In this document: in pieces, positions 2,230 to 27,940 of the stretch
Numbering within the stretch: the first letter of the stretch is position 1
How the letters are laid out: the number at the start of each line of letters is the position of its first letter
Origin: a virus
Direction: 5' to 3' (one strand)
Virus genome (UHGV): UHGV-2051569
Length of the DNA: 32,262 bases
Made by a program: the position numbers and the translations under genes
Notes under the pieces: model-generated
What the model saw: only the letters and a program-made list of their open reading frames with translations
Databases searched by the model: none
Told to the model about the DNA's origin: nothing

Positions 2230-4677
2230 TTAACCGTCATGCATCATGCTGGCACGGGCGCGCGCACGTTTATCCCGCTCGTATTTTTCGAGCGCATCCT
2301 GTAACTGGCGGTCAAGCTGTGTTCCCGGCGCAGTACCGCCCGTCAGGTTAATGTGATATTCGTTTTTACTCTGGTCCACATAAGAGCGGCCAGCCGGTGC
2401 CGTAACCGGCTGATAAGCCTGATAGCCTGCATAAGAGCTGGTCGCCGGAATATAACCACCGGTGCCATACGTGGCGGCATTAGTCCTTGCGGCGGTCTGG
2501 TCAAGTGTGTCTGACTCTTTGTTGATAACACCGAGTTTTTCCAGTACCCAGTCAATGCCGCTGCGCAGTTTGTTGAACGCATTAAGCGGCAGCATCAGCG
2601 CGTCAGCCAGTGCCTGCCCGAACAGGACGCCCGTGTCACGGCAACGGTTCAGGGTGTCCTGGGTGGCTTTGACCGGGGCAATCAGGTTTTTAAACCACTG
2701 CCACGCGGCCTGTAACTTTTCGCCCAGCCAGTCAAACACCGGCTTAAGTGGCGTGAACAGTTCCCCCACAGGCGCAAATGCCGCTTTCAGCCCTTCCACC
2801 ACACCGCCAAAGAATGCGCTGACAGGCTCCCAGTATTTACGGATAAGTAACGCCCCGGCGACAATGGCGGCCACCACGGCCACAACCGGCCAGCTAATCG
2901 CCCCGATGGCCGTCATAACAGCACTGCCAACCGTCGTGAAGATTGCACCCATTGCGCCTGCTGCCGCGATGATGGCATTGATGCCGGTGATAACCGGCCA
3001 GGCTACAAGACCAATGGCACCGATGACACCAATCAGCGCCAGTGCACCACCGACAATGAGGCCGATGGTTGATGCCAGTGATTTGTTTTTCTGGATCCAG
3101 CCGTCGAGTTTTAACACATACTTTGTGGCCGTCTGCGTGAGCTTACGCAGCGCGCCTTCCTGCTGGTCAAACAGGTCAGTCCCCACCGCCTCATAAGCGG
3201 ACTGAAACTCTTTAAAGTCACCGCCTAGGTTGTCCTGCATGATATTTACCAGCTCGGCGGTCTTCCCGTCTGAGGCTTTAAACGCAGCGGTCAGTTTGTC
3301 CAGCTTTCCGGTTGAGGCGGCAGTCATCAGCACGGCGGCGGCTGAGCTGGCCTCCTCCCCGAAAATAGTTTTCATGTATTCAGCCTGCTGGGCAGTACCG
3401 AGCCGGTTTTTCTCAAAACTGGCCTGCATTTCTTTCAGAATGGTAAATATTGGCCGGGTGTTTCCCTTGCTGTCTGAGGTTTTCACTCCAAGCTCTTTGA
3501 GTGCATCCCATGCTTTTCCCGTCGGTGCCTGCAGGCGGCTTAACACGGCACGGCTTCCCGTCCCCGCCATTGAGCCTGTGATTTTTGCATCATGCAGCGC
3601 CCCGACCATTGCGGCGGTTTCTTCAATGCTGACACCGGCATTTTTTGCCACAGGTGCGGCATAGGTCAGCGCATCGCTCATGCCGTCAAAATCGGCGGCG
3701 GTTTTGTTCATCGTCATGGAGAGAACATCCCCGATATGAGCGACCTTATCGTTTGAAAGCTGAAAGGCGGATTTCATCCCCATCAGCAGGGCGGCGCTTT
3801 CTTCCATCGTGCGGCGGTTCGCCAGCGCCATATTCAGCGTGACCGGCGTTGCCGCCTGAATGGCATCAACATCCCCACCCGCTTTCGCGATGATTATCTG
3901 TGCACCGGCCGCATCATCCGCCGAGGCGGCGGTATTGTCGCCGAGCTGGCGCGCCTGTTTGCGTAGTGCGGTCATTTCGGCGGAGTCTTTTGCCACTCCG
4001 AGCACGGCCTGCAATTCTGAGTTTTTCTGCGCAAACTCATAACCGGGCATCAGCAACTTAACTCCGGCCATCGTTCCCGCCGCCGCAATCCCCACACCGG
4101 CAGCGCCTACTGAGGCCATATTTCCGGCCAGTTCCTTTCCGGCCTGATAACGCTGTTTGACTGCGTTAAGTTTTGCCTGTTGCGCACTGACACGCGCCAG
4201 CGCGTCGCGCTGACGGTTAAGCTGTGCGGTGGTTTCACTGATACGGTTTTTCAGTCCCTGCTCATCATGTGCAAGATTGCGGGTATTAATTCCCACAGCG
4301 GCCAGTTCCCGCTGCTGGCGTTTAACGGAATCCGTCAGGCGGTTATATTTCGCCTGTAAGTCCTCCGTCGCTCGCTTTGCGGATTCCAGCACTTTCGCCT
4401 GAGCACGGGTCGGACGTTCGGTGTTTTTAAACTGTGTGGCAAGGGCTTCGGCTTCCTGCCGTGCCTTTTCAAGTGCATGACCAGTCACGGCGAGCTGCGC
4501 ACTGGTCTTGCGAAATCCCTCAATACGGGATGCGTGACCGTTCAGCTCGCGCAGTGATTTTTGTGTTTCCCGGATATCCCCCGACAGCGACTTGCTCGCT
4601 GTGCGGATGGATTTAAACGGGCGGGATGCCTGGTCAACAGCCCTGAGCAATACCTGTAATTTTACATTGTTACTCAT
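2230..4677 (-). CDS. T: Tail tape measure protein (P2 gpT-like)
   Basis: 815-aa ORF with a coiled-coil-rich N-terminus, a hydrophobic Gly/Ala-rich central segment and a conserved position after E/E'. Confidence 0.9.
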   Translation of the reverse strand: MSNNVKLQVLLRAVDQASRPFKSIRTASKSLSGDIRETQKSLRELNGHASRIEGFRKTSAQLAVTGHALEKARQEAEALATQFKNTERPTRAQAKVLESAKRATEDLQAKYNRLTDSVKRQQRELAAVGINTRNLAHDEQGLKNRISETTAQLNRQRDALARVSAQQAKLNAVKQRYQAGKELAGNMASVGAAGVGIAAAGTMAGVKLLMPGYEFAQKNSELQAVLGVAKDSAEMTALRKQARQLGDNTAASADDAAGAQIIIAKAGGDVDAIQAATPVTLNMALANRRTMEESAALLMGMKSAFQLSNDKVAHIGDVLSMTMNKTAADFDGMSDALTYAAPVAKNAGVSIEETAAMVGALHDAKITGSMAGTGSRAVLSRLQAPTGKAWDALKELGVKTSDSKGNTRPIFTILKEMQASFEKNRLGTAQQAEYMKTIFGEEASSAAAVLMTAASTGKLDKLTAAFKASDGKTAELVNIMQDNLGGDFKEFQSAYEAVGTDLFDQQEGALRKLTQTATKYVLKLDGWIQKNKSLASTIGLIVGGALALIGVIGAIGLVAWPVITGINAIIAAAGAMGAIFTTVGSAVMTAIGAISWPVVAVVAAIVAGALLIRKYWEPVSAFFGGVVEGLKAAFAPVGELFTPLKPVFDWLGEKLQAAWQWFKNLIAPVKATQDTLNRCRDTGVLFGQALADALMLPLNAFNKLRSGIDWVLEKLGVINKESDTLDQTAARTNAATYGTGGYIPATSSYAGYQAYQPVTAPAGRSYVDQSKNEYHINLTGGTAPGTQLDRQLQDALEKYERDKRARARASMMHDG

Positions 4678-12564: not shown

Positions 12565-12701
12565 GAACAAAGAATGCCGATTGTTAAAGCCAAGAGCAAA
12601 ACGATTCAGCTGTATGCTCTTCTACACAATTCGGTGTGCATTCATGTATCATTTGAGTGTTGACTCATTCGAAAATCACACAAAACATATGGCAGGTAGT
12701 A

Positions 12702-13538
12702 ATGAAAAGAACTTCATCTTTTAGGCGTACAATAAGCAATATGAAATATATTATAGGTATCTTTTTTTTATACTCCGGGCTTATAGTAGGGTTGTCTGTT
12801 TATAATGATAACTACAACTCAAAATTCATGGAGAATTTTCTTGTTAATGCAAATTCTTCAATTTTAGATTTTCTTGTTTTGGGTGTGATTCTTTACTATT
12901 TTGAAAATAAAAGGCAAAATAAAGATGCTATTCACGAACTAATTGAAGATCTTGAAAATCTGGCAAAGCATTCTTCTGCAGAACTGAATATTATGAAGAT
13001 AAAAATCATACGTCAGTTAAATGCTAAAGGAATATATAACATTCAAGTTCCAAGGATTGAACTTGATAAAATGTCCACTATCAAATATTTACATTTTAAA
13101 GACGCTGACTTAACCGGCTTGAATATGAGCGAATCATACATTAGAGATTGTTCTTTCGATAATTGCACAATTCAAGCTCTAAATATTACAGGCAATAGAG
13201 TTAAGAGTGTTAAATTCAAAAACTGCAAGCTAAGAAATATTAAGGCATTTAATACATGTTTTCAAAATGTCACTTTCGAAAACTGCAGTTTTGAAGGGGG
13301 GTATTTTACAGATAGCGAAATGAAAAGCTGCATATTAAAAGGATGTGATTTTAAATCCGTTACTTATGAAGGGGCTAACATGCGGAATGCAAATCTATTA
13401 AATTCAATTAACATTAACGTTAAAGAACTTGTTAAAGCAAAAAACATAGATTATTTAATTTGTGATGAGCAAATTAAAAATGAAATAAGAAAGGAAAACC
13501 CAGCAATAAAAATATCGAGAGGAATAATACGAGGTTAG
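12702..13538 (+). CDS. Cargo (moron) gene: membrane-anchored pentapeptide-repeat protein, function unknown
   Basis: AT-rich ORF antisense to the flanking late genes. It has two N-terminal hydrophobic helices (YIIGIFFLYSGLIVGLSVY, ILDFLVLGVILYYF) and about 20 consecutive 5-residue repeats with a hydrophobic fifth position (KDADL TGLNM SESYI RDCSF DNCTI ...). Start chosen at MKRTSS with a weak AGGT RBS. Confidence 0.6.
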   Translation: MKRTSSFRRTISNMKYIIGIFFLYSGLIVGLSVYNDNYNSKFMENFLVNANSSILDFLVLGVILYYFENKRQNKDAIHELIEDLENLAKHSSAELNIMKIKIIRQLNAKGIYNIQVPRIELDKMSTIKYLHFKDADLTGLNMSESYIRDCSFDNCTIQALNITGNRVKSVKFKNCKLRNIKAFNTCFQNVTFENCSFEGGYFTDSEMKSCILKGCDFKSVTYEGANMRNANLLNSININVKELVKAKNIDYLICDEQIKNEIRKENPAIKISRGIIRG

Positions 13539-19569: not shown

Positions 19570-21339
19570 ATGACCAATTCCACCGATACAACCTTGTTGC
19601 ATGACCCGCGACGGCAGGCATCGCTGCTTTACTGGCAGGGTTTTTCCGTGCCACAGATTGCCGAAATGCTGCAGGTCAAGCGCCCGACCGTGCAGAGCTG
19701 GAAGCAGCGCGACGGCTGGGACGGCATCGCGCCGATTTCCCGCGTTGAAAGCAGCCTTGAGGCTAGGCTGATTCAGCTCATCGCCAAGCCGCAAAAGACA
19801 GGGGGTGATTTCAAAGAGATTGACCTACTCGGACGGCAGATTGAACGGTTGGCGCGAGTCAACCGCTACAGCCAGACCGGCAACGAAGCCGACCTTAACC
19901 CCAACGTCGCCAACCGCAACAAAGGGGAGCGCAAAAAGCCGAAAAAGAATTTTTTCAGCGACGAGGCTATCGATAAACTAGAGGAATTATTTTTCGACCA
20001 GTCTTTCGAGTACCAGTTGCAGTGGTACCGCGCAGGACTGGAGCACCGTATTCGTGACATTCTCAAATCCCGCCAGATTGGCGCGACATTCTATTTCTCC
20101 CGCGAGGCACTGCTGCGCGCACTCAAAACCGGCCATAACCAGATATTTTTATCAGCCAGTAAAACGCAGGCTTACGTGTTCCGCGAATACATCATCCAGT
20201 TTGCGCGACTGGTCGACGTTGACCTGACTGGCGACCCGATTGTCATCGGTAACAACGGCGCAAAACTGATTTTTCTCGGTACCAATTCCAACACCGCGCA
20301 GAGCCATAACGGCGATCTGTATGTCGATGAAATATTCTGGATCCCGAATTTTCAGAAACTGCGCAAAGTCGCCTCGGGCATGGCCTCGCAAAAGCACCTG
20401 CGCTCGACCTATTTTTCGACACCTTCCACGCTGGCGCACGGCGCTTACCCCTTCTGGTCTGGCGAGCTGTTCAACAAGGGGCGCAGCCGGATTGCCGACC
20501 GCATCGAAATCGACATCAGTCACAGCGCGCTTGCCGGTGGCCAGCTCTGCGACGATGGCCAGTGGCGGCAGATTGTCACCATTGAGGACGCCCTTGCGGG
20601 TGGCTGCACCCTGTTCGACCTCGACCAGCTCAAACGCGAAAACAGTGATGAGGACTTTAAGAACCTGTTTATGTGCGAGTTTGTCGACGATAAAGCGTCG
20701 GTATTCCCGTTCGAGGAGCTGCAGCGCTGCATGGTCGATGTGATGGAGGAATGGGAGGACTTTGCCCCGTTCGCCGACCATCCGTTCGGCTCTCGTCCTG
20801 TCTGGATTGGCTACGACCCGTCACACACCGGCGACAGTGCCGGGTGCGTCGTGCTCGCGCCGCCGGTGGTCTCTGGTGGCAAGTTCCGCATGCTGGAGCG
20901 CCACCAGTGGAAGGGCATGGATTTTGCAGCACAGGCAGAGGGCATCCGCAAGCTGACCGAGAAATACAACGTCGAATACATCGGCATTGACGCAACCGGC
21001 CTCGGTCTCGGCGTGTTCCAGCTGGTGCGCTCATTTTACCCGGCGGCACGCGGCATCCGTTACACACCTGAAATGAAAACCGCAATGGTACTCAAGGCGA
21101 AAGACACCATTCGCCGTGGCTGTCTGGAGTACGACGCCGGAGCAACCGACGTCACGCAGTCGTTTATGTCCATCCGCAAAACCATGACCAGCAGCGGGCG
21201 CAGCGCCACCTATGAGGCCAGCCGCACCGAGGAAGCCAGCCACGCCGATATCGCATGGGCGACCATGCACGCCCTGTTAAACGAACCGCTTTCTGCCGGT
21301 AGCGGCATGCAGCCTAAATCTATTCTGGAGTTCAACTAA
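19570..21339 (+). CDS. P: Terminase large (ATPase) subunit P
   Basis: 589-aa ORF, divergent from O, directly upstream of the portal gene. Confidence 0.95.
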   Translation: MTNSTDTTLLHDPRRQASLLYWQGFSVPQIAEMLQVKRPTVQSWKQRDGWDGIAPISRVESSLEARLIQLIAKPQKTGGDFKEIDLLGRQIERLARVNRYSQTGNEADLNPNVANRNKGERKKPKKNFFSDEAIDKLEELFFDQSFEYQLQWYRAGLEHRIRDILKSRQIGATFYFSREALLRALKTGHNQIFLSASKTQAYVFREYIIQFARLVDVDLTGDPIVIGNNGAKLIFLGTNSNTAQSHNGDLYVDEIFWIPNFQKLRKVASGMASQKHLRSTYFSTPSTLAHGAYPFWSGELFNKGRSRIADRIEIDISHSALAGGQLCDDGQWRQIVTIEDALAGGCTLFDLDQLKRENSDEDFKNLFMCEFVDDKASVFPFEELQRCMVDVMEEWEDFAPFADHPFGSRPVWIGYDPSHTGDSAGCVVLAPPVVSGGKFRMLERHQWKGMDFAAQAEGIRKLTEKYNVEYIGIDATGLGLGVFQLVRSFYPAARGIRYTPEMKTAMVLKAKDTIRRGCLEYDAGATDVTQSFMSIRKTMTSSGRSATYEASRTEEASHADIAWATMHALLNEPLSAGSGMQPKSILEFN

Positions 21340-21340
21340 A

Positions 21341-22387
21341 ATGGGTAAACAAAAATCCCGTAAAGCCAACGCACAAAAGGCCAGCAAACCACAACAACTG
21401 ACCGCCAGCACACCGCCAAAAACGACAGCGTTCACCTTCGGCGAGCCGGTGCCGGTACTCGATAAGCGCGACATTCTGGATTACGTCGAGTGCATCAGTA
21501 ACGGCAAATGGTACGAGCCGCCGGTCAGCTTCTCAGGGCTGGCAAAGAGCCTGCGCTCTGCCGTGCATCACAGCTCGCCAATTTATGTTAAGCGTAACGT
21601 GCTCGCGAGCACCTACATTCCGCACCCGTTGTTATCCCGTCAGGATTTCAGCCGCTTTGCGCTCGATTATCTGGTGTTCGGTAACGCCTTTCTTGAGCAG
21701 CGCCACAGCGTCACCGGCCAGTTAATCAAACTGCTGGCCTCGCCAGCCAAATACACCCGACGCGGAGTCGACGATTCGATTTTCTGGTTTGTGGAAAACT
21801 TCACCCAGCCGCACGAGTTCGCGCCTGATACCGTGTTTCACCTGCTGGAGCCCGACATTAATCAGGAGATTTACGGCCTGCCCGAATATCTCAGCGCGCT
21901 AAATTCCGCCTGGCTGAATGAATCCGCGACGCTGTTCCGCCGCAAGTATTATCAGAACGGCGCGCACGCGGGTTACATCATGTATGTGACTGACCCGGCG
22001 CAGAGCGCGACCGACGTCGAATCGCTGCGCGAGGCGATGCGCAACTCAAAAGGGCTCGGCAACTTTAAGAACCTGTTTTTCTACGCTCCCGGCGGAAAAC
22101 CGGACGGCATCAAAATCGTGCCACTGAGCGAGGTCGCCACAAAGGATGACTTTTTCAACATCAAGAAGGCCAGTGCCGCCGATCTGATGGACGCGCACCG
22201 CGTACCGTTCCAGCTCATGGGCGGCAAGCCCGAGAATATCGGTTCACTCGGTGATGTTGAGAAGGTGGCAAAGGTATTTGTGCGCAACGAGCTGTCGCCG
22301 CTACAGGACAGGTTCAGGGAGGTAAATGACTGGCTCGGCATGGAGGTCATCAGATTCAAAGAGTACACCCTCGACAACCCAGAATAA
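21341..22387 (+). CDS. Q: Portal protein Q
   Basis: 348-aa ORF translationally coupled to P and transcribed towards cos, as in P2. Confidence 0.95.
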   Translation: MGKQKSRKANAQKASKPQQLTASTPPKTTAFTFGEPVPVLDKRDILDYVECISNGKWYEPPVSFSGLAKSLRSAVHHSSPIYVKRNVLASTYIPHPLLSRQDFSRFALDYLVFGNAFLEQRHSVTGQLIKLLASPAKYTRRGVDDSIFWFVENFTQPHEFAPDTVFHLLEPDINQEIYGLPEYLSALNSAWLNESATLFRRKYYQNGAHAGYIMYVTDPAQSATDVESLREAMRNSKGLGNFKNLFFYAPGGKPDGIKIVPLSEVATKDDFFNIKKASAADLMDAHRVPFQLMGGKPENIGSLGDVEKVAKVFVRNELSPLQDRFREVNDWLGMEVIRFKEYTLDNPE

Positions 22388-22464: not shown

Positions 22465-23469
22465 ATGGGCGCGGAGATTAATATTTTGGAAACTGATTTT
22501 AAAATAACCCTCGAAGGTTTCGCTACTGAGCAAGAAGCAAATAATATCGGTAATTTCACACTAGAAGCTATCCGAGCTTTAACAAAAAATCTCAATCTTG
22601 ATATCTCCAAATTAAAATGCGTGATTGTTTCCTATAACTTCAGTGAAGCTCTTCAAAAGGTAACATCCTCTTACCAACACAAATCCCCTAGTTCATTTAC
22701 CAATAGCAAACAGGGCGCAGCCGTCGGGCAGTTAGTAACAAAAATTGGCAATGATGGGCTATGTGAAGAATATACCCTTGTGCTATCGATTGATTTTTTT
22801 GTTGAGCTTTTCAATGATGGTAGCTTCTTAAAACTGAAAGAAGAAGGATACCTCGCAGTCATCCATCGCATTCACCATGAATTAGTGCACGTACATGAAA
22901 AAAACTTACTAACATGCTTAGCCCAAAACTTTACAGTCAACGAGTATGGTAGCGCGCTTCTTATCTCAGCCACGCGTGCGTGGTCTGAATATCTCGCTAA
23001 TTACATGTCTTCGGGGTCTGCCCCTCAAGAAACTATCGATTTATTTTTAGAGAATCTTGACACTGTTGTAAATGAAGTATCTGACGAGATTGAAAAACTC
23101 ATCTGGGGTTATAAGTACGGTAATATTTCTCTGAATGACATGTATCTCGAAGTAAAAAAACGTATCAGGCTAATCATCAACTCTTATGCTTATGCGATGG
23201 GTTATGTCCATTCTCTAAACATCAATATTAAAGAATACGATCCAAAGCTATCCCTTACACTATCCAACTCAAAGATAAGATATCAATTATCAGAATTAGG
23301 CATTGCTTTTCAGAATCTTTATGGGAAGTTTAATGACCAGCACATTACAGGTTTTGGTGATTTTCGGGAGATAACAATAATCATTGATGAAATATTCAAG
23401 CAGTTTGGGCTTGTTTTAGAGTGTCCCGATTGGTCTGGCGACGGTGAACTCTACATACATGTAAATTAG
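22465..23469 (+). CDS. Cargo gene between portal and cos: hypothetical protein with an HExxH motif (possible metallopeptidase-like)
   Basis: 334-aa AT-rich ORF containing ...AVIHRIHHELVHVHEKN...; no obvious RBS; located between the Q stop and the cos-like site. Confidence 0.55.
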   Translation: MGAEINILETDFKITLEGFATEQEANNIGNFTLEAIRALTKNLNLDISKLKCVIVSYNFSEALQKVTSSYQHKSPSSFTNSKQGAAVGQLVTKIGNDGLCEEYTLVLSIDFFVELFNDGSFLKLKEEGYLAVIHRIHHELVHVHEKNLLTCLAQNFTVNEYGSALLISATRAWSEYLANYMSSGSAPQETIDLFLENLDTVVNEVSDEIEKLIWGYKYGNISLNDMYLEVKKRIRLIINSYAYAMGYVHSLNINIKEYDPKLSLTLSNSKIRYQLSELGIAFQNLYGKFNDQHITGFGDFREITIIIDEIFKQFGLVLECPDWSGDGELYIHVN

Positions 23470-23688
23470 TTTAATCATAGTAGAAACATAATTAGCAGTT
23501 TGAATCCTGCCACTCCTGTAAAGCCGCTGCTCCTGGTGGCTTTTCCATGCACACCACCATCACGCATCAGATGCGTCTCACGCGCACGAACACACCCGAC
23601 CACCAACGAACCAGCAGCGACCACGACAGCGCCATCACGACGCGCTCAGAGGATAATTTTTATTATTACGCATCACTGCTGGCGCGCA

Positions 23689-23707
23689 ATGCTTTCCCCG
23701 CCACGCC
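23689..23707 (-). other. cos cohesive-end site
   Basis: Minus strand reads GGCGTGGCGGGGAAAGCAT, matching the 19-nt cohesive end of P2/186-type phages as recalled; GC-rich flanks with repeated GTGATG/GGTGG motifs. Confidence 0.7.
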
Positions 23708-23852
23708 TGCCCGCTTTATGGGTCGGTTTTAATGCAGTTGCATGACCTCGCTTTAGCTAAGCTACTACCGGTACTCCTTATGTTTTGGCGGTTGGATCAA
23801 CGCATGCAAAAAAATGCAGTGGCATGCACACATTCATTACATCTTATTTATC

Positions 23853-24569
23853 TTATCGAACCCTTTTTTCCAGATTGAGTAGGGCTTTTTTGCATTTTTT
23901 TTGATTAATAAACGTTCTATCCAGTATCTTTATATGAAACATCATTACTCTATTGAAGCAAATAAACATTTCTCGGGCATCCTGGCCAACAATCAGAAAC
24001 GACTCGCCATTAATATTTGGAATGTTGCTATTCTTCGATAAATCATCAAATGCCTCAGAGCCACGTTCATTTCTATACATTTCTTTAATAGCCATTACTT
24101 CATCGTGGCGAACGATATTAATCCAAATTAATTTATCTACAGTCAACAATTGCCCATACTCTAAGAAAAATACTCCCTTGGCTAACCAGGTGCCGTATTG
24201 GTAAATCTCCCTACCATTTAGGGGTAATGTTATCTGCGCACCTTTTTTTGTATGCCTAACACTCTGGAATGCTTCACGAAATTTCGAGTCTTTTCTTTTA
24301 AGCGCATTATGGAATTTATTAACAGCATCAAAGCTGCCTGTTGAGTGCTCTCCTACCATGCGGCAAATGACACCTAACACCTCGTCAATTCGGCTTTTAT
24401 CGCCATTGCACTTTTTGCATACATAGAAATCACCTTCGCCGTTGGTTCTATGAATGGAGACTGAAACTTGCGGAATCATGTGTTCAACTGAGCGGCAGTG
24501 GGGGTGATTTTCAACCTTATTCATGAGAACACCGCAATAAACGCAGTGTGTGCTTGGTTTCATATACAT
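23853..24569 (-). CDS. Cargo gene: HNH (His-Me finger) nuclease-domain protein with an uncharacterised C-terminal domain
   Basis: N-terminal CVYCG ... VEHMIPQ ... N ... CKKCNGDKS fits the Cys4 plus catalytic His/Asn HNH pattern; AT-rich; start uncertain (24644, 24569 or 24563; a weak AAGGG RBS precedes the inner ATGs). Confidence 0.6.
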   Translation of the reverse strand: MYMKPSTHCVYCGVLMNKVENHPHCRSVEHMIPQVSVSIHRTNGEGDFYVCKKCNGDKSRIDEVLGVICRMVGEHSTGSFDAVNKFHNALKRKDSKFREAFQSVRHTKKGAQITLPLNGREIYQYGTWLAKGVFFLEYGQLLTVDKLIWINIVRHDEVMAIKEMYRNERGSEAFDDLSKNSNIPNINGESFLIVGQDAREMFICFNRVMMFHIKILDRTFINQKKCKKALLNLEKRVR

Positions 24570-24665
24570 TGCCCTTACAATGTCTAATGACGAATGAGTA
24601 GCACTAAAATAACACAAATCTGATGGTGGGATGTCAGCCCCCATGCTTTAGATTGGACATACGAA

Positions 24666-24688
24666 AACCGGCTTTAATAGTGCCGGTT
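24666..24688 (-). terminator. Candidate intrinsic terminator separating the tum-like operon from the HNH gene
   Basis: Stem aaccggc/gccggtt with a 9-nt loop, followed on the minus strand by TTTTCGTAT. Confidence 0.35.
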
Positions 24689-24710
24689 TGGGCCAATCTC
24701 TACGGAACAG

Positions 24711-24782
24711 ACTAACCCCTAGAGGGACTCGTTGTTCAACCCTCCAGTACCGAAAGCAAGTTTCAGCGCCGACGGCGTTCGC
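24711..24782. repeat. ~70-bp imperfect direct repeat, copy A
   Basis: actaacccctagagggactcgttgttcaaccctccagtaccgaaagcaagtttcagcgccgacggcgttcg aligns at roughly 80% with copy B. Confidence 0.55.
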
Positions 24783-24991
24783 TATCTTCGACATGGTGGT
24801 GGCGCATATTGTGTCGGCCTGCTGATATCGTTCAGCTTATCGTAGTTATCCCTGACTATTTCTGCACACCCGACCAATTCCGCTGGCGTCAGGTTCTCAT
24901 TGACCATTATCGTCTGCAAGCGATGAACGATAGCCATCAGTTTTATGCTTTTAGTTTTGTGCTGCGGAATTTCGCCCGGTAGTCGATGCAT
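24782..24991 (-). CDS. Hypothetical small protein, distal gene of the LexA-boxed operon
   Basis: 69-aa ORF with a GAGGG RBS about 8 nt upstream; its 3' end runs into repeat copy A. Confidence 0.45.
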   Translation of the reverse strand: MHRLPGEIPQHKTKSIKLMAIVHRLQTIMVNENLTPAELVGCAEIVRDNYDKLNDISRPTQYAPPPCRR

Positions 24992-25113
24992 ATTATCGCC
25001 CTCAATGAATTTTATTCAGTGCTGTCAAAGCGCCACTATAAAATCCTCTAAGGTAACGTCCCATTAATCACCGGTGTGTAACCAATAAAACATCGAGAAA
25101 GTTTGAAAGGTAG

Positions 25114-25185
25114 AACTAACGCCTCTCGGAGCCAGTTTCAACCCCGCCAGCACTGAAAGCAAGATTCAGCACCGACGGCGTTTGT
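25114..25185. repeat. ~70-bp imperfect direct repeat, copy B
   Basis: actaacgcctctcggagccagtttcaaccccgccagcactgaaagcaagattcagcaccgacggcgtttg lies immediately 3' of the DinI-like gene stop. Confidence 0.55.
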
Positions 25186-25418
25186 TAATGCAGCCAGCTA
25201 TCGTCCTCCCATACCTGCTGCATGATTTCCATTACTCGTTTTTTATCTTCGTCCAGTTTCAAACCGCTTAACTCAACGCCATTAGCTGAGCCCTTACGAA
25301 TGCGGATAGCAGTCTTTGGGTAAATAGGTTGAAGATTGCGGTACAGCTCAGCCTCAAGTGCATCCAACGTTGCCTGACTAATTTTTTGCTCTTTATCCAA
25401 CGTGATATTGATTCTCAT
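25185..25418 (-). CDS. DinI-like protein (Tum-like antirepressor domain)
   Basis: 77-aa MRINITLDKEQKISQATLDALEAELYRNLQ...EDKKRVMEIMQQVWEDDSWLH aligns along its length with E. coli DinI as recalled; sits downstream of the LexA box. Confidence 0.8.
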   Translation of the reverse strand: MRINITLDKEQKISQATLDALEAELYRNLQPIYPKTAIRIRKGSANGVELSGLKLDEDKKRVMEIMQQVWEDDSWLH

Positions 25419-25421
25419 AAT

Positions 25422-25604
25422 CTAATCAGCCTTATAAAAATTATCATCTTCGGTTTCGTTATTTTCGCTGTTTGCTAGGTCTGCAATGAGAGTGAGCGCG
25501 AGCTTTAAGTCTGATGGCTTGCAGTTTGCAATCAGAGATACCTCGGCAATAAATTGCACACAAGCCCACTTTTGCTGCGTTCGGCTGAAATGTTCGCCAA
25601 CCAT
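25422..25604 (-). CDS. Small acidic protein, first gene after the LexA box; possibly the N-terminal part of an interrupted tum-like gene
   Basis: 60-aa ORF with a GGGAGGG RBS; it ends in TAG, followed by ATT and then the in-frame ATG of the DinI-like ORF. Confidence 0.5.
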   Translation of the reverse strand: MVGEHFSRTQQKWACVQFIAEVSLIANCKPSDLKLALTLIADLANSENNETEDDNFYKAD

Positions 25605-25624
25605 GAAATCCCTCCCATAGGGTT

Positions 25625-25642
25625 ACTGTATATTTATACAGT
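25625..25642 (-). promoter_or_regulatory. LexA (SOS) box overlapping the promoter of the tum-like operon
   Basis: tACTGTATATTTATACAGTa, a near-perfect CTGT-N8-ACAG palindrome about 20 bp upstream of the 60-aa ORF start. Confidence 0.75.
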
Positions 25643-25717
25643 AGCACGTATTGGCAAAAGATGGGAAGAAAAAAAACGAATAGAGCGATTGCTGTATGTG
25701 CATGATATGGATATGAA

Positions 25718-27940
25718 TTACTCATGTATTGGTTTTGATGCTTCAGCCATCGCCGCAACACGATTAAGGATTTTCCGAGCTTTAGCCTCATGCGATGGTG
25801 CTGCGGAAAATATTTCTCCTTTGGCCGTTCCGCGTAGCCATTTACCATCAAAACAACTTTTACCACCGGCCATCAGGTGCAGGGCTTCGCCCCGGCTGAT
25901 ATTAATGCCGGTTGTCAGATGTATTTCGTCGATAGTTTTAGCTATAGCTGCGTTTTGCTCATCCGTTCCGTGGATGAATTTTCGCCGTGCTGCTGGCTTT
26001 TGCTTCCTGAGTCGGTTGGTCAATTCTCGTCTTTCACGCCGACTCAGTGGTTTTGTTAAATCCAGTATCGGTGGATCGCTTTCGCTTCCCGTACAGTTAT
26101 TGACAGAACTCCGAGGGACGGCTTTGCCGTCCTGAAGGTCAACGGCCAAATCAACAGCACGCTTCGGAACAATCTTCCACTGAGTGAGCCGGGTTAAAAT
26201 CGGGCTTCCTGCACCTATGGAGGAATCGTAGACCCCCTTAATACATACCGTTTCCTCACCGTACTGATTAAGCTCGGTACGCGGTTCATACAGTGTGCGC
26301 ACCTGTAAATCGTCGCGACGGACAAACGGCCCACCCTGAGCATTAACATAACCAGCCCAGTCACCAGCGTCGGCGGCATCATGGACGGCGGCAAACTCAA
26401 CGCTCAGACCGTGCGCGGTTTCGGTATCAGCGAGGCGACGCAACTCACGGTAAACCGTCACCGGCGCACCACCAATAAACTGAAACTGACGGATGTGCCA
26501 GCGCGCAGCCCATGCTGAAACGGCGGGGGCTGTCTCTTTCAGCAGCTCACCGCTTTCATCATCGGTTTCACCATCGAGAGCATAACCGTCGATATTTTTT
26601 GAAATGTATTTAGCAACATAGCCGGTTGCGCTGCCTTTCTCCGGGTCAATGGACTCGGCGTGGAAACGTGCTTTTTTGGATTTATCGCTTTTCAGTTCGT
26701 GGCGGTCTTCTTTCCATGCGTATTTACGGACGATGGAGCGAACATATTCAACATATTCCGGCAGCATGAACATCAGCATGTGCCAGTGTGGAGTGCCGTC
26801 GTGATGGGGCTCGGCGACACGAATACCGAAAATACGGACATCTTCCCGATGTAGTTTGGCACGGATACGCGCCCAGATACCGGTTAGATAGTTTTGCGTG
26901 TCAGCCGGGCTGGCACCGCTCCATTTGCTGTTACGGTAACCGGCTTTAGTCGTGGCGTGATATTTTGACGGCGCGGTTAGAGTGTAAAACTCACCGACAT
27001 AACCGAGCTCATTACAGATGTTTTCAAACCCACGAATGCGGGTCATGAGCTCACAGCGGCGAATCGCAGGGTTAGCAACTGAGCCATCATATTTTTCAAT
27101 TAGGCTGATACGGTTGCCGTCTTCGTCTTCGAGATCCAGACCTTTGAGAAATTCACGAGTGCGGCGCTTTTGTTCACGCCAGTCAGTCACGCAGTTTTTA
27201 CTCGCGTAAGTGTTTTTTTTCTTACTGACGTTGCCGACTGCAATTTGCAGGTGTTCGCGCCACGTAGCTGCAACACGGCGCAAACGACCGCGCCACCACC
27301 CATCGTTAAACATTTTGGCGATAGCCGGTGCGATTTCATCCGCACCGACATATTTTTTTTCAACCCGCTCCCAATGTGGTGGGATAACGTTGAATTGGAG
27401 GGAAATAAAGCCAGCACGAATATACCAGGTGTACAGCGTTTTAAGCTCGCCGAATCCGTGGTCATTAATGTTGGCAAGTTCACCACGAATGAAATTAGCA
27501 ATATCAGCGGCCAACAGGTCAACATCAGCGCGCGACATGTCCGGGAGACGGTTATATTGGGCGACCATATTAACCATGCGTGACGACAGATATTGCATTT
27601 GCTGAGTATCAAAATGACTTCCAAAAACAGCGGTTGATACCTTGCTGTTGATACCAGCGCATTCGTATTTTTTTGCGACCAGTTCAAGACGCGGCAATGC
27701 CTTTTTGCAGAAGCTGATTAAAAATGCATTGGCTCGTTGACTACCCTGATTTTGCTCCAGCACCGCAGCAGTGCGATAAACATCTAACCGTACGCAGTCG
27801 GGCTGGAGAGAAAGCACCTTTTTTGCATGCAGCAAAGCCGCGAACATACGGTCGCGACGATGCTGTTGCTCATAAGTAAGGTATGGGCTGGGGATTGCCG
27901 ACCGTGGGACGTTCCACGGATAAGCGAATTGAACAGCCAA
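25718..27940 (-). CDS. A: Replication initiation protein A (rolling-circle nickase, P2 gpA-like)
   Basis: 740-aa ORF with the HxH metal-binding motif (HDGTPHWHMLMF) and catalytic Tyr region (GYVAKYISK) typical of P2 A-type initiators. Confidence 0.9.
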   Translation of the reverse strand: MAVQFAYPWNVPRSAIPSPYLTYEQQHRRDRMFAALLHAKKVLSLQPDCVRLDVYRTAAVLEQNQGSQRANAFLISFCKKALPRLELVAKKYECAGINSKVSTAVFGSHFDTQQMQYLSSRMVNMVAQYNRLPDMSRADVDLLAADIANFIRGELANINDHGFGELKTLYTWYIRAGFISLQFNVIPPHWERVEKKYVGADEIAPAIAKMFNDGWWRGRLRRVAATWREHLQIAVGNVSKKKNTYASKNCVTDWREQKRRTREFLKGLDLEDEDGNRISLIEKYDGSVANPAIRRCELMTRIRGFENICNELGYVGEFYTLTAPSKYHATTKAGYRNSKWSGASPADTQNYLTGIWARIRAKLHREDVRIFGIRVAEPHHDGTPHWHMLMFMLPEYVEYVRSIVRKYAWKEDRHELKSDKSKKARFHAESIDPEKGSATGYVAKYISKNIDGYALDGETDDESGELLKETAPAVSAWAARWHIRQFQFIGGAPVTVYRELRRLADTETAHGLSVEFAAVHDAADAGDWAGYVNAQGGPFVRRDDLQVRTLYEPRTELNQYGEETVCIKGVYDSSIGAGSPILTRLTQWKIVPKRAVDLAVDLQDGKAVPRSSVNNCTGSESDPPILDLTKPLSRRERRELTNRLRKQKPAARRKFIHGTDEQNAAIAKTIDEIHLTTGINISRGEALHLMAGGKSCFDGKWLRGTAKGEIFSAAPSHEAKARKILNRVAAMAEASKPIHE

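What the first reader, a model, noticed from the sequence alone, without database searches (positions are those of the whole stretch)
23853..24644. HNH-nuclease-domain protein at the cos-proximal position where P2 carries old/tin
This AT-rich gene is convergent with the post-portal cargo gene across cos. It is separated from the upstream LexA-controlled operon by a hairpin and so probably has its own promoter. The N-terminal ~80 aa show a full HNH pattern (CxxC, EH-x2-P, Asn, CxxC-N-x2-K) and the ~150-aa C-terminal domain is unrecognisable to me. It occupies the P2-family hotspot that holds the OLD nuclease and Tin in P2, so a single-gene anti-phage nuclease or abortive-infection function is plausible. 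No partner ATPase is present, which argues against a Septu-like pair.
Basis: partly seen in the sequence, partly recalled or inferred. Interest (0 to 1): 0.75.

Follow-up and report, generated by a model that had tools for sequence, protein, structure and literature searches.

The report
Solo HNH nuclease in prophage hotspot
A phage-186-like prophage carries, right next to its DNA-packaging site, a rare stand-alone HNH nuclease gene with an unrecognisable tail domain; its placement and its relatives' neighbours point to an untested anti-phage defence gene.

Summary
The ORF is real, but the coding sequence most likely starts at M28 (23853-24563, minus strand, 236 aa). It is AT-rich (39% GC) and under purifying selection. 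It sits between a homologue of the phage 186 SOS-operon terminator t95b and cos, in the gpA-gpQ hotspot of the P2 family.

The HNH core (CxxC, EH, CxxCN-x2-K) is conserved across a small family. That family has about 80 clusters among 1.84 billion representative proteins, all annotated as hypothetical. The nearest profile matches are Septu PtuB models, and they cover the nuclease part only. No ATPase partner was found in about 20 distinct loci. The last 90-100 residues fold confidently (pLDDT 95) but match nothing in PDB or BFVD.

Prophages with an identical portal protein or a near-identical gpA gene lack the gene, which argues against a packaging role. Distant relatives lie in other prophage hotspots, in a type I R-M island, and beside Dsr1 and PDC-S06 on a plasmid, which argues against site-specific homing.

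Best reading (confidence about 0.55): a single-gene exclusion or defence nuclease gated by its C-terminal domain. No known defence model matches it full-length, and no phenotype has been tested. An own promoter was not confirmed. Interest is moderate.

The parts
23853..24563 (-). Likely true CDS of the HNH-family protein (236 aa, start M28 of the 263-aa ORF, stop included)
   Evidence: Family alignments start here. phrog_31193 covers residues 28-263. The upstream extension carries an in-frame TAG in L002. dN/dS is about 0.06-0.17.
24564..24644 (-). Upstream in-frame extension of the maximal ORF, probably 5' leader rather than coding; the proximal 62 nt are 95% identical to L002, against 85% for the CDS
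24369..24563 (-). HNH (beta-beta-alpha-Me) core with a four-Cys zinc finger, residues 1-65. In 236-aa numbering: C7, C10, E27-H28, P31, D45-F46, C49, C52, N53, K56, D60
   Evidence: Conservation. The family profile hits 4h9d HNH at E=0.001 and AnaCas9 HNH at 0.0096. PF14279 HNH_5 is hit by 10 of 47 members. PtuB HMMs match.
24129..24368 (-). Helical extension of the nuclease domain (residues about 66-145), containing the family-wide Y..LAKGxYF motif with invariant G130
   Evidence: AF2 helices 50-70, 74-89, 93-100, 117-136. Distant relatives and some PtuB HMM alignments extend to about residue 145-150.
23856..24128 (-). C-terminal alpha/beta module (residues about 146-236; beta-alpha-alpha-beta-beta-beta-alpha) with no detectable relative outside this family
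24665..24689 (-). Hairpin homologous to phage 186 terminator t95b (end of the LexA-controlled p95 operon); the U-tract is shortened to UUUUCG here
23747..24712 (.). Variable block relative to prophages with 99.6%-identical gpA (L031, L032); it contains the HNH cassette
   Evidence: blastn breakpoints. The cassette 23853-24690 is shared with L002 at 85% in otherwise different flanks.
23689..23707 (-). cos cohesive-end sequence (186-type), 146 nt from the HNH stop codon
25626..25641 (+). LexA box of the upstream SOS (p95-like) operon
   Evidence: 186 annotation

Best explanation
The gene is a moron-type accessory cargo gene of a phage-186-like (Eganvirus, P2-family) prophage. It was inserted between the SOS-operon terminator and cos, in the gpA-gpQ defence hotspot. 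It encodes a stand-alone, basic, zinc-finger HNH nuclease. The nuclease domain is distantly PtuB-like (Septu type). The PtuA-binding three-helix tail of PtuB is replaced by a family-specific alpha/beta domain of about 90-100 aa, and there is no ATPase partner.

Most likely function: superinfection exclusion or anti-phage defence for the lysogen. The proposed mechanism is inferred, not shown. The C-terminal domain would gate or target the nuclease. On infection by a heterologous phage the HNH site would cut nucleic acid: DNA most likely, with tRNA possible by analogy with PtuB. That would stop the invader directly or by abortive infection. Expression would come from a weak, unrecognised promoter in the conserved leader and/or from read-through of the weakened t95b-like terminator during SOS.

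Shown here: the gene is real and under selection, it has an HNH catalytic core, it lies in the hotspot as sporadic cargo, it has no partner, and its relatives have defence-gene neighbours.

Inferred: nuclease activity, gating by the C-terminal domain, the substrate, and the defence phenotype.
For: HNH core:
- Catalytic and zinc ligands are conserved across 47 diverse members.
- The family profile hits solved HNH nucleases.
- HNH_5 and PtuB models match.

Real gene:
- dN/dS is about 0.06-0.17 in both halves.

Location:
- In more than 15 loci from E. coli, Klebsiella, Kosakonia, Lelliottia and IMG/VR, close homologues (53-100% identity) lie between gpA and cos. The stop codon is usually about 125-175 nt from the cos core.
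- This interval is the documented P2-family defence hotspot (PMC9122126; PMC13586616).
- In phage 186 the adjacent slot holds orf97, annotated 'expression from plasmid blocks 186 infection'.

Sporadic cargo:
- 7 of 5426 E. coli genomes carry the gene, against 153 with this gpA.
- Prophages with 99.6%-identical gpA carry other genes in this slot.

Defence neighbours of homologues:
- PD-T4-6 kinase (L002, E=9e-36) and PDC-S31 (L009).
- Type I R-M plus TA modules (L015).
- PDC-S06 plus Dsr1 on a Shewanella plasmid (L038).
- PDC-M43B (L037).
- Other P2/HP1-type hotspots, next to integrase/CI and next to tail-fibre genes (L027, L028).
- A homologue is retained in a prophage remnant that kept only hotspot cargo (L035).

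Other:
- No partner is conserved across loci (same calls).
- The proteins are basic (median pI 9.3).
Against: - No experimental phenotype exists.
- No full-length hit to any PADLOC v2 defence model; only weak HNH-part hits, E about 1e-4 for the query.
- No literature on the family was found.
- No recognisable promoter in the leader.
- Guilt by association rests on about ten distant contexts, three of them uninformative (L012, L014, L033).
- Hotspots also carry non-defence cargo such as partition systems and toxins (PMC9122126).
- How the lysogen avoids self-cleavage is unexplained.
Confidence: 0.55

Rival explanations
1. It is a free-standing HNH homing endonuclease. This would be a selfish gene that cuts the empty t95b-cos interval of related 186-like phages and spreads by recombinational repair during co-infection, with no benefit to the host.
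For: - It is a single intergenic HNH ORF with a discrete cassette and clean occupied and empty sites.
- It is AT-rich.
- It is sporadic among near-identical prophages.
- The close subfamily is almost always at the same site, about 125-175 nt from cos.
- The C-terminal domain is basic and could bind DNA.
Against: - The same slot holds unrelated cargo in sister prophages, as hotspots do.
- Relatives at 27-45% identity sit at quite different sites: the integrase/CI region, the tail-fibre region, a type I R-M island, plasmids and the chromosome.
- No NUMOD, AP2, IENR or HTH modules were found.
- The HNH is of the HNH_5/PtuB type.
- A homologue is retained in a prophage remnant.
Confidence: 0.13
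2. It is a Type IV-like, modification-dependent restriction nuclease. The C-terminal domain would read modified bases and the HNH would cut modified phage DNA directly, as McrA of prophage e14 does. This is still defence, but direct and constitutive rather than sensor-gated or abortive.
For: - It has a single-protein architecture of HNH plus an unknown domain, and it is basic.
- It is prophage-borne.
- It has no immunity or partner gene (locus surveys).
- Self DNA would be spared automatically, which solves the self-toxicity problem.
Against: - The domain order is the reverse of McrA (own knowledge).
- Nothing here tests substrate preference.
Confidence: 0.15
3. It is a nuclease serving the phage's own life cycle. 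It would be expressed by read-through of the SOS (p95) operon on induction, for example to degrade host or competitor DNA, to process replication or recombination intermediates, or to assist terminase at cos as HK97 gp74 does.
For: - It lies directly downstream of the LexA-controlled operon, behind a terminator with a weakened U-tract, and no own promoter was detected.
- It is adjacent to cos in most loci. The HNH-cos-terminase topology resembles that of HK97-type phages (own knowledge of Kala et al. 2014, not re-read here).
Against: - It is absent from 186 and PSP3.
- It is absent from a prophage with the identical portal protein accession WP_000517961.1: L031 lacks it, L002 has it.
- It is convergent with, not co-transcribed with, Q/P.
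- At 236 aa with an extra domain it differs from the roughly 120-aa packaging HNHs.
- Distant relatives are on plasmids and chromosomes without any terminase.
Confidence: 0.1
4. It is the nuclease subunit of a split Septu-like system whose ATPase is encoded elsewhere, in trans.
For: The closest profile hits are PtuB and PDC-M01B. On one Shewanella plasmid an ABC-type ATPase (PDC-S06) lies about 0.9 kb downstream of a distant relative.
Against: - No ATPase is adjacent in about 20 other loci.
- PDC-S06 is itself a single-gene candidate and is absent everywhere else.
- The PtuA-binding three-helix C-terminal domain described for PtuB (PMC12673091) is replaced by a different domain.
Confidence: 0.05

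Closest known systems
PtuB, the HNH nuclease of Septu and of type I-A retrons (Retron-Eco7/Ec78)
   Same: - Zinc-finger HNH with CxxC...EH...CxxCN-x2-K.
- PtuB HMMs are the best defence-profile hits: query E=7e-5, family members down to 1e-8.
- In distant members the alignments run into the post-HNH helices.
- Overall size is similar (about 220-240 aa).
- It has a defence-island or hotspot context.
   Different: - No PtuA ATPase next to it in any locus.
- The HNH starts at residue 5, not about 45.
- The C-terminal three-helix PtuA-binding domain (PMC12673091) is replaced by an alpha/beta module of about 90-100 aa.
- Scores are far below those expected of a family member.
P2 old and tin (phage exclusion genes at the same gpA-cos position)
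   Same: Same hotspot and side of cos, accessory and AT-rich, single-gene exclusion functions carried by a P2-family prophage (PMC9122126).
   Different: No sequence relationship. OLD is an ABC ATPase plus Toprim nuclease, and Tin is unrelated. No PADLOC Old-type hit.
Phage 186 orf97 (p95 operon, 'expression from plasmid blocks 186 infection')
   Same: Neighbouring slot between tum and cos. It is often the immediate upstream neighbour of HNH homologues.
   Different: Unrelated protein (BLASTP E=1.2). orf97 lies upstream of t95b, whereas the HNH cassette lies downstream of it.
McrA (e14 prophage HNH Type IV restriction enzyme)
   Same: Prophage-encoded single-protein HNH nuclease with a second, specificity-giving domain (own knowledge).
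   Different: The domain order is reversed, and no detectable homology exists outside the HNH motif. Modification dependence is untested.
HK97 gp74-type packaging HNH proteins
   Same: HNH gene adjacent to cos in a cos-packaging phage (own knowledge).
   Different: It is dispensable for this phage lineage: sister prophages with the identical portal protein, or with near-identical gpA, lack it. It is larger, has two domains, is on the opposite strand to the terminase genes, and its relatives occur outside phages.

Membership tests
HNH / His-Me finger nuclease superfamily | beta-beta-alpha-metal core with a catalytic His (general base) preceded by an acidic residue | tested here: met
   E27-H28 are present in 45 and 46 of 47 members. 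AF2 predicts beta 23-27, beta 46-49 and helix 50-70. The family profile hits 4h9d HNH at E=0.001 and AnaCas9 HNH at 0.0096.
HNH / His-Me finger nuclease superfamily | Metal-ligand Asn/His at the start of the helix (the last H/N of H-N-H) and a structural zinc site CxxC...CxxC | tested here: met
   C52, N53 and K56 are invariant. C7, C10 and C49 are present in 40-44 of 47 members.
HNH / His-Me finger nuclease superfamily | Metal-dependent nuclease activity | not testable with these tools
   Requires biochemistry.
Septu PtuB | Encoded next to a PtuA ABC-type ATPase | tested here: not met
   No ATPase lies in the gpA-gpQ interval of the window or next to homologues in about 20 loci. The only nearby ATPase is the single-gene candidate PDC-S06, in one plasmid.
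Septu PtuB | Full-length match to PtuB profiles | tested here: not met
   PADLOC PtuB hits have E=7e-5 to 9e-3 and cover only residues 18-95 of the 263-aa ORF. That corresponds to residues 5-65 of the 236-aa protein.
Septu PtuB | C-terminal three-helix domain that binds the PtuA C-terminal domain (as described for Retron-Eco7 PtuB, PMC12673091) | tested here: not met
   The predicted C-terminal module is a beta-alpha-alpha-beta-beta-beta-alpha domain of about 90-100 aa. The comparison with the published description was made by eye, not by superposition.
Packaging-associated HNH (HK97 gp74 type) | Conserved together with the terminase and portal module of the phage lineage | tested here: not met
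   It is absent from 186 and PSP3. It is absent from L031, which has the identical portal protein accession, and from L031 and L032, which have 99.6%-identical gpA. Only 7 of 153 E. coli genomes with this gpA carry it.
Free-standing HNH homing endonucleases | Recognisable DNA-binding modules (NUMOD, AP2, IENR1, HTH) joined to the HNH | tested here: not met
   No Pfam or NCBIfam hits beyond the HNH in the query or in 47 members.
Free-standing HNH homing endonucleases | Family members confined to one cognate target site | tested here: inconclusive
   The close subfamily is nearly always at t95b-cos. Distant members are at many unrelated sites.
Free-standing HNH homing endonucleases | Cleavage of the empty site and super-Mendelian inheritance | not testable with these tools
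   Needs phage crosses or in vitro cleavage.
Known anti-phage defence systems (PADLOC-DB v2.0.0) | Full-length match to a model of a validated or candidate system | tested here: not met
   Only HNH-part hits to PtuB and PDC-M01B models. DefenseFinder and later models were not available.
P2-family gpA-gpQ hotspot cargo | Located between gpA and gpQ next to cos, and variable among prophages with near-identical core genes | tested here: met
   hotspot definition in PMC9122126 and PMC13586616.

The most novel reading that the evidence does not exclude
This is the founding member of a new single-protein defence family. In it, a PtuB-type zinc-finger HNH nuclease has dispensed with the PtuA ATPase. 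It has acquired instead a structurally novel alpha/beta C-terminal domain that senses infection or selects the target by itself. It would be an ATPase-independent 'solo Septu' nuclease, and might cut tRNA rather than DNA, as PtuB does.
Probability: 0.3. Interest if true: 0.65.

Novelty: new variant of a known kind. Interest (0 to 1): 0.48.

Why it matters
If it protects lysogens, it would add a compact (0.7 kb) single-gene nuclease system to the P2-family defence repertoire. It would also show that a PtuB-like HNH can work without its ATPase, using a new sensor or targeting fold. That bears on how nuclease effectors are re-wired at phage hotspots. If it does not protect, it is one more uncharacterised hotspot cargo gene. 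The family is rare and every member is annotated 'hypothetical', so any phenotype would be new information.

Tried and rejected
- Pfam and NCBIfam on the query gave no hits.
- The profile of close homologues against PDB sequences gave only chance kinase hits. The deeper profile found HNH domains only.
- The AFDB library was unavailable.
- Homology to 186 orf97 was tested and rejected.
- Promoter scans, by the tool and by my own script, found no convincing sigma-70 site in the leader.
- An Rfam scan of 23400-25800 found nothing.
- Literature searches by accession, by PHROG id, and for HNH single-gene defence in P2-like prophages found no description of this family.
- A locus search with the deep alignment failed for lack of conserved stretches. 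The GTDB representative-genome scan found only Kosakonia arachidis.
- The 263-aa reading of the ORF was rejected in favour of 236 aa.
- A partnership with the 334-aa gene across cos was rejected. That gene has no ATPase or PADLOC hits, and it is swapped independently of the HNH gene: L001 has a DUF2188 gene there.

Full report
**What is at the coordinates**

The window is a complete phage-186-like (Eganvirus, P2-family) prophage. The terminase ATPase gene lies at 19570-21339 (+) and the portal gene at 21341-22387 (+). An AT-rich 334-aa cargo gene lies at 22465-23469 (+). The 186-type cohesive end GGCGTGGCGGGGAAAGCAT lies at 23689-23707. On the minus strand, in order, are the ORF in question, a 69-aa gene (PSP3 gp37-like), DinI/tumB, a 60-aa tumA-like gene and the replication gene A at 25718-27940.

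A perfect LexA box, CTGTATAAATATACAG, at 25626-25641 precedes the small-gene operon. This matches the annotated p95/LexA arrangement of phage 186.

**The ORF**

The ORF 23853..24644 (-), 263 aa, exists. Its first 27 codons are unlikely to be translated, for three reasons:
- Nearly all homologues begin at the residue equivalent to M28.
- phrog_31193 aligns to residues 28-263.
- In the 85%-identical copy in E. coli P13-6 the same stretch has an in-frame TAG.

The likely product is 236 aa (23853-24563). RefSeq's M41 start removes the first CxxC of the zinc site and is probably too short.

GC content is 0.39, against 0.52 for the window and 0.56-0.57 for the portal and terminase genes. Pairwise dN/dS, where dS is not saturated, is 0.06-0.17 in both halves. 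This is a real gene under purifying selection.

**Anatomy of the insertion**

Comparison with phage 186 shows that the hairpin at 24665-24689 is the homologue of t95b, the annotated terminator of the SOS operon. Its RNA fold has -17.5 kcal/mol and z = -3.4. In 186 the order is t95b, about 40 bp, a block of TGCAT repeats, then cos. Here an HNH cassette of about 0.8 kb sits exactly between t95b and that block.

Prophages whose gpA is 99.6% identical (L031, L032) diverge from the window only between 23747 and 24712. They carry other small genes there. The cassette 23853-24690 (hairpin, leader and gene) recurs at 85% identity in E. coli P13-6 in otherwise different flanks.

The inference of an own promoter is not confirmed. 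Neither the tool nor my own scan finds a sigma-70-like site in the leader. However, the 62 nt before the ATG are better conserved than the CDS, at 95% against 85%. Here the U-tract is UUUUCG, whereas 186 has seven U. SOS read-through is a live alternative.

**The protein**

Pfam, NCBIfam and PDB-sequence searches with the query alone give nothing. The family is small:
- 28 clusters at 90% identity in 5.8 billion proteins.
- 80 representatives at E<=1e-3 in an exhaustive scan of 1.84 billion proteins, 26 of them at E<=1e-30.
- Every named member but one is called 'hypothetical'; one marginal hit is named 'HNH endonuclease'.

Across 47 members down to about 19% identity, C52, N53, K56 and G130 are invariant. 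E27, H28, P31, D45, F46, C49 and D60 are nearly so, and C7 and C10 are present wherever the N-terminus is present. This is a complete HNH core with a four-Cys zinc site.

The family profile hits solved HNH domains: 4h9d at E=0.001 and AnaCas9 at 0.0096. Ten of 47 members hit PF14279 HNH_5. The best defence-profile hits are PtuB and PDC-M01B, but only over the nuclease part.

AlphaFold2 with the 47-sequence alignment gives pLDDT 95 and pTM 0.91. The model has:
- the beta-beta-alpha core;
- helices to about residue 136, containing the family-wide Y..LAKGxYF motif;
- a beta-alpha-alpha-beta-beta-beta-alpha module to the C-terminus.

More distant relatives (P0087, P0092, P0097, P0100, P0104) match only positions about 5-150. 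Some PtuB HMM alignments also run that far. Retron-Eco7 PtuB is described as an HNH domain of residues 1-152 plus a three-helix C-terminal domain that binds PtuA (PMC12673091). The nuclease domain here therefore probably spans residues about 1-145, and only the last 90-100 aa are family-specific.

**Distribution and neighbours**

Close homologues (53-100% identity) were examined in more than 15 loci. These come from E. coli, Klebsiella pneumoniae and K. oxytoca, Kosakonia arachidis, metagenomes and IMG/VR; Klebsiella phage Kp4852-2 also encodes a 67%-identical copy, whose neighbourhood was not examined. All examined copies lie in 186-like prophages between gpA and cos, and the stop codon is usually about 125-175 nt from the cos core.

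Immediate neighbours vary. They include gp37-like, tumA-like, orf97-like, DUF6236, two small ORFs, a PD-T4-6 kinase (E=9e-36) and PDC-S31/DUF2971. No ATPase is ever adjacent.

In E. coli complete genomes the gene occurs in 7 of 5426, while this gpA type occurs in 153. The identical portal protein accession (WP_000517961.1) occurs with the gene (L002) and without it (L031).

Relatives at 27-45% identity occur elsewhere:
- a prophage remnant that kept only hotspot cargo and a portal fragment (L035);
- a prophage between CI/CII and the integrase (L027), and an HP1/P2-like phage next to tail-fibre and baseplate genes (L028);
- inside a type I R-M locus with TA modules (L015);
- Shewanella plasmids, once immediately upstream of PDC-S06 and Dsr1 (L038) and once 3.5 kb from PDC-M43B (L037);
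- three uninformative contexts (L012, L014, L033).

The gpA-gpQ interval, the integrase-proximal region and the tail-gene region are the published defence hotspots of P2-like phages (PMC9122126; PMC13586616). [quoted passage not shown] Both points match what is seen here.

**Interpretation**

The data fit an accessory moron that benefits the lysogen. The most likely product is a single-gene exclusion or defence nuclease whose family-specific C-terminal domain gates or targets a PtuB-like HNH domain. I put this at about 0.55. The specific gating mechanism and the substrate (DNA, or tRNA as reported for PtuB systems) are inference.

- **Packaging role.** This is contradicted by the gene's absence from sister phages with the same portal or a near-identical gpA, and by relatives that lie outside phages.
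- **Homing endonuclease.** This remains possible (about 0.13). The occupied and empty sites are clean and the close subfamily is site-faithful. However, the scattered locations of the wider family, the alternative cargo in the same slot and the lack of homing-type DNA-binding modules argue against it.
- **Type IV-like, modification-dependent mechanism.** This is a plausible alternative form of defence (about 0.15), and it would explain the lack of self-toxicity.
- **Trans-acting ATPase partner.** This is unlikely (about 0.05).

**Comparison with known systems**

The gene works most like a nuclease effector of the Septu PtuB kind, but it fails the membership tests for PtuB. It has no PtuA, no full-length profile match and a different C-terminal domain. 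It shares only its position with P2 old/tin and 186 orf97. It matches no PADLOC v2 system full-length.

I rate it a new variant of a known kind: hotspot-borne single-gene nuclease cargo. Interest is moderate (0.48). A specialist would expect uncharacterised nucleases in this hotspot. The absence of an ATPase and the novel, confidently folded C-terminal domain still make it a reasonable candidate for experimental testing.

Noticed in passing
window 22465-23469 (+): A 334-aa AT-rich (GC 0.38) cargo gene lies between the portal gene and cos. It matches phrog_11743 full-length but has no Pfam or PADLOC hit. It is 99.7% identical in HNH-less prophages (L031, L032) and is replaced by a DUF2188 gene in L001. 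The two sides of cos therefore swap cargo independently.
   Followed up: partly
window 12657-13538 (+): A very AT-rich (GC 0.30) 293-aa ORF is embedded in the tail-gene block, the P2 tail-region hotspot. It has weak PADLOC hits to RT-associated SLATT models (E=6e-5).
   Followed up: partly
window 24740-24784 and 25143-25187; also L029 (phage 186) about 3345-3413: A structured repeat of about 45-70 nt (84% identical copies) follows both the 69-aa gene and DinI. It recurs after orf97 in phage 186 and in several Klebsiella loci. It has no Rfam match and its function is unknown.
   Followed up: partly
window 23804-23828 and 23732-23743: Three ATGCA motifs are spaced exactly 10 bp apart, and an ATGCAnnTGCAT motif lies beside cos. 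TGCAT-repeat blocks recur at the same place in most 186-like loci examined, including phage 186, which lacks the HNH gene. This is possibly a protein-binding (packaging) element.
   Followed up: partly
L002 4205-5812 (E. coli P13-6); L009 8728-9546 (K. oxytoca): HNH homologues share the hotspot with a PD-T4-6-type Ser/Thr kinase (E=9e-36) and with a PDC-S31/DUF2971 protein (E=2e-36).
   Followed up: yes
L038 6983-14678 (Shewanella xiamenensis plasmid pHD6416-NDM): A 28%-identical family member lies directly upstream of a PDC-S06 ABC-type ATPase (full-length match, 1200 bits) and the sirtuin Dsr1. This looks like a plasmid-borne defence island.
   Followed up: partly
L035/L036 8232-13005: A prophage remnant next to phoH and efeUOB-like genes retains only hotspot cargo and a portal-gene fragment. 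The cargo is a DUF6680 gene, a 45%-identical HNH homologue and a DpnII/MboI-like gene.
   Followed up: partly
L001 6001-6672 and L002 6001-6672 (RefSeq annotation): PGAP starts the protein at the equivalent of M41 (223 aa). That removes the first CxxC of the conserved zinc site, so it is a likely start-codon mis-annotation.
   Followed up: yes
window 25422-25604 and 25185-25418 (-): The tum function is split into tumA-like (60 aa) and DinI/tumB (77 aa) genes, as in PSP3, rather than fused as in phage 186. Both lie behind a perfect LexA box.
   Followed up: partly
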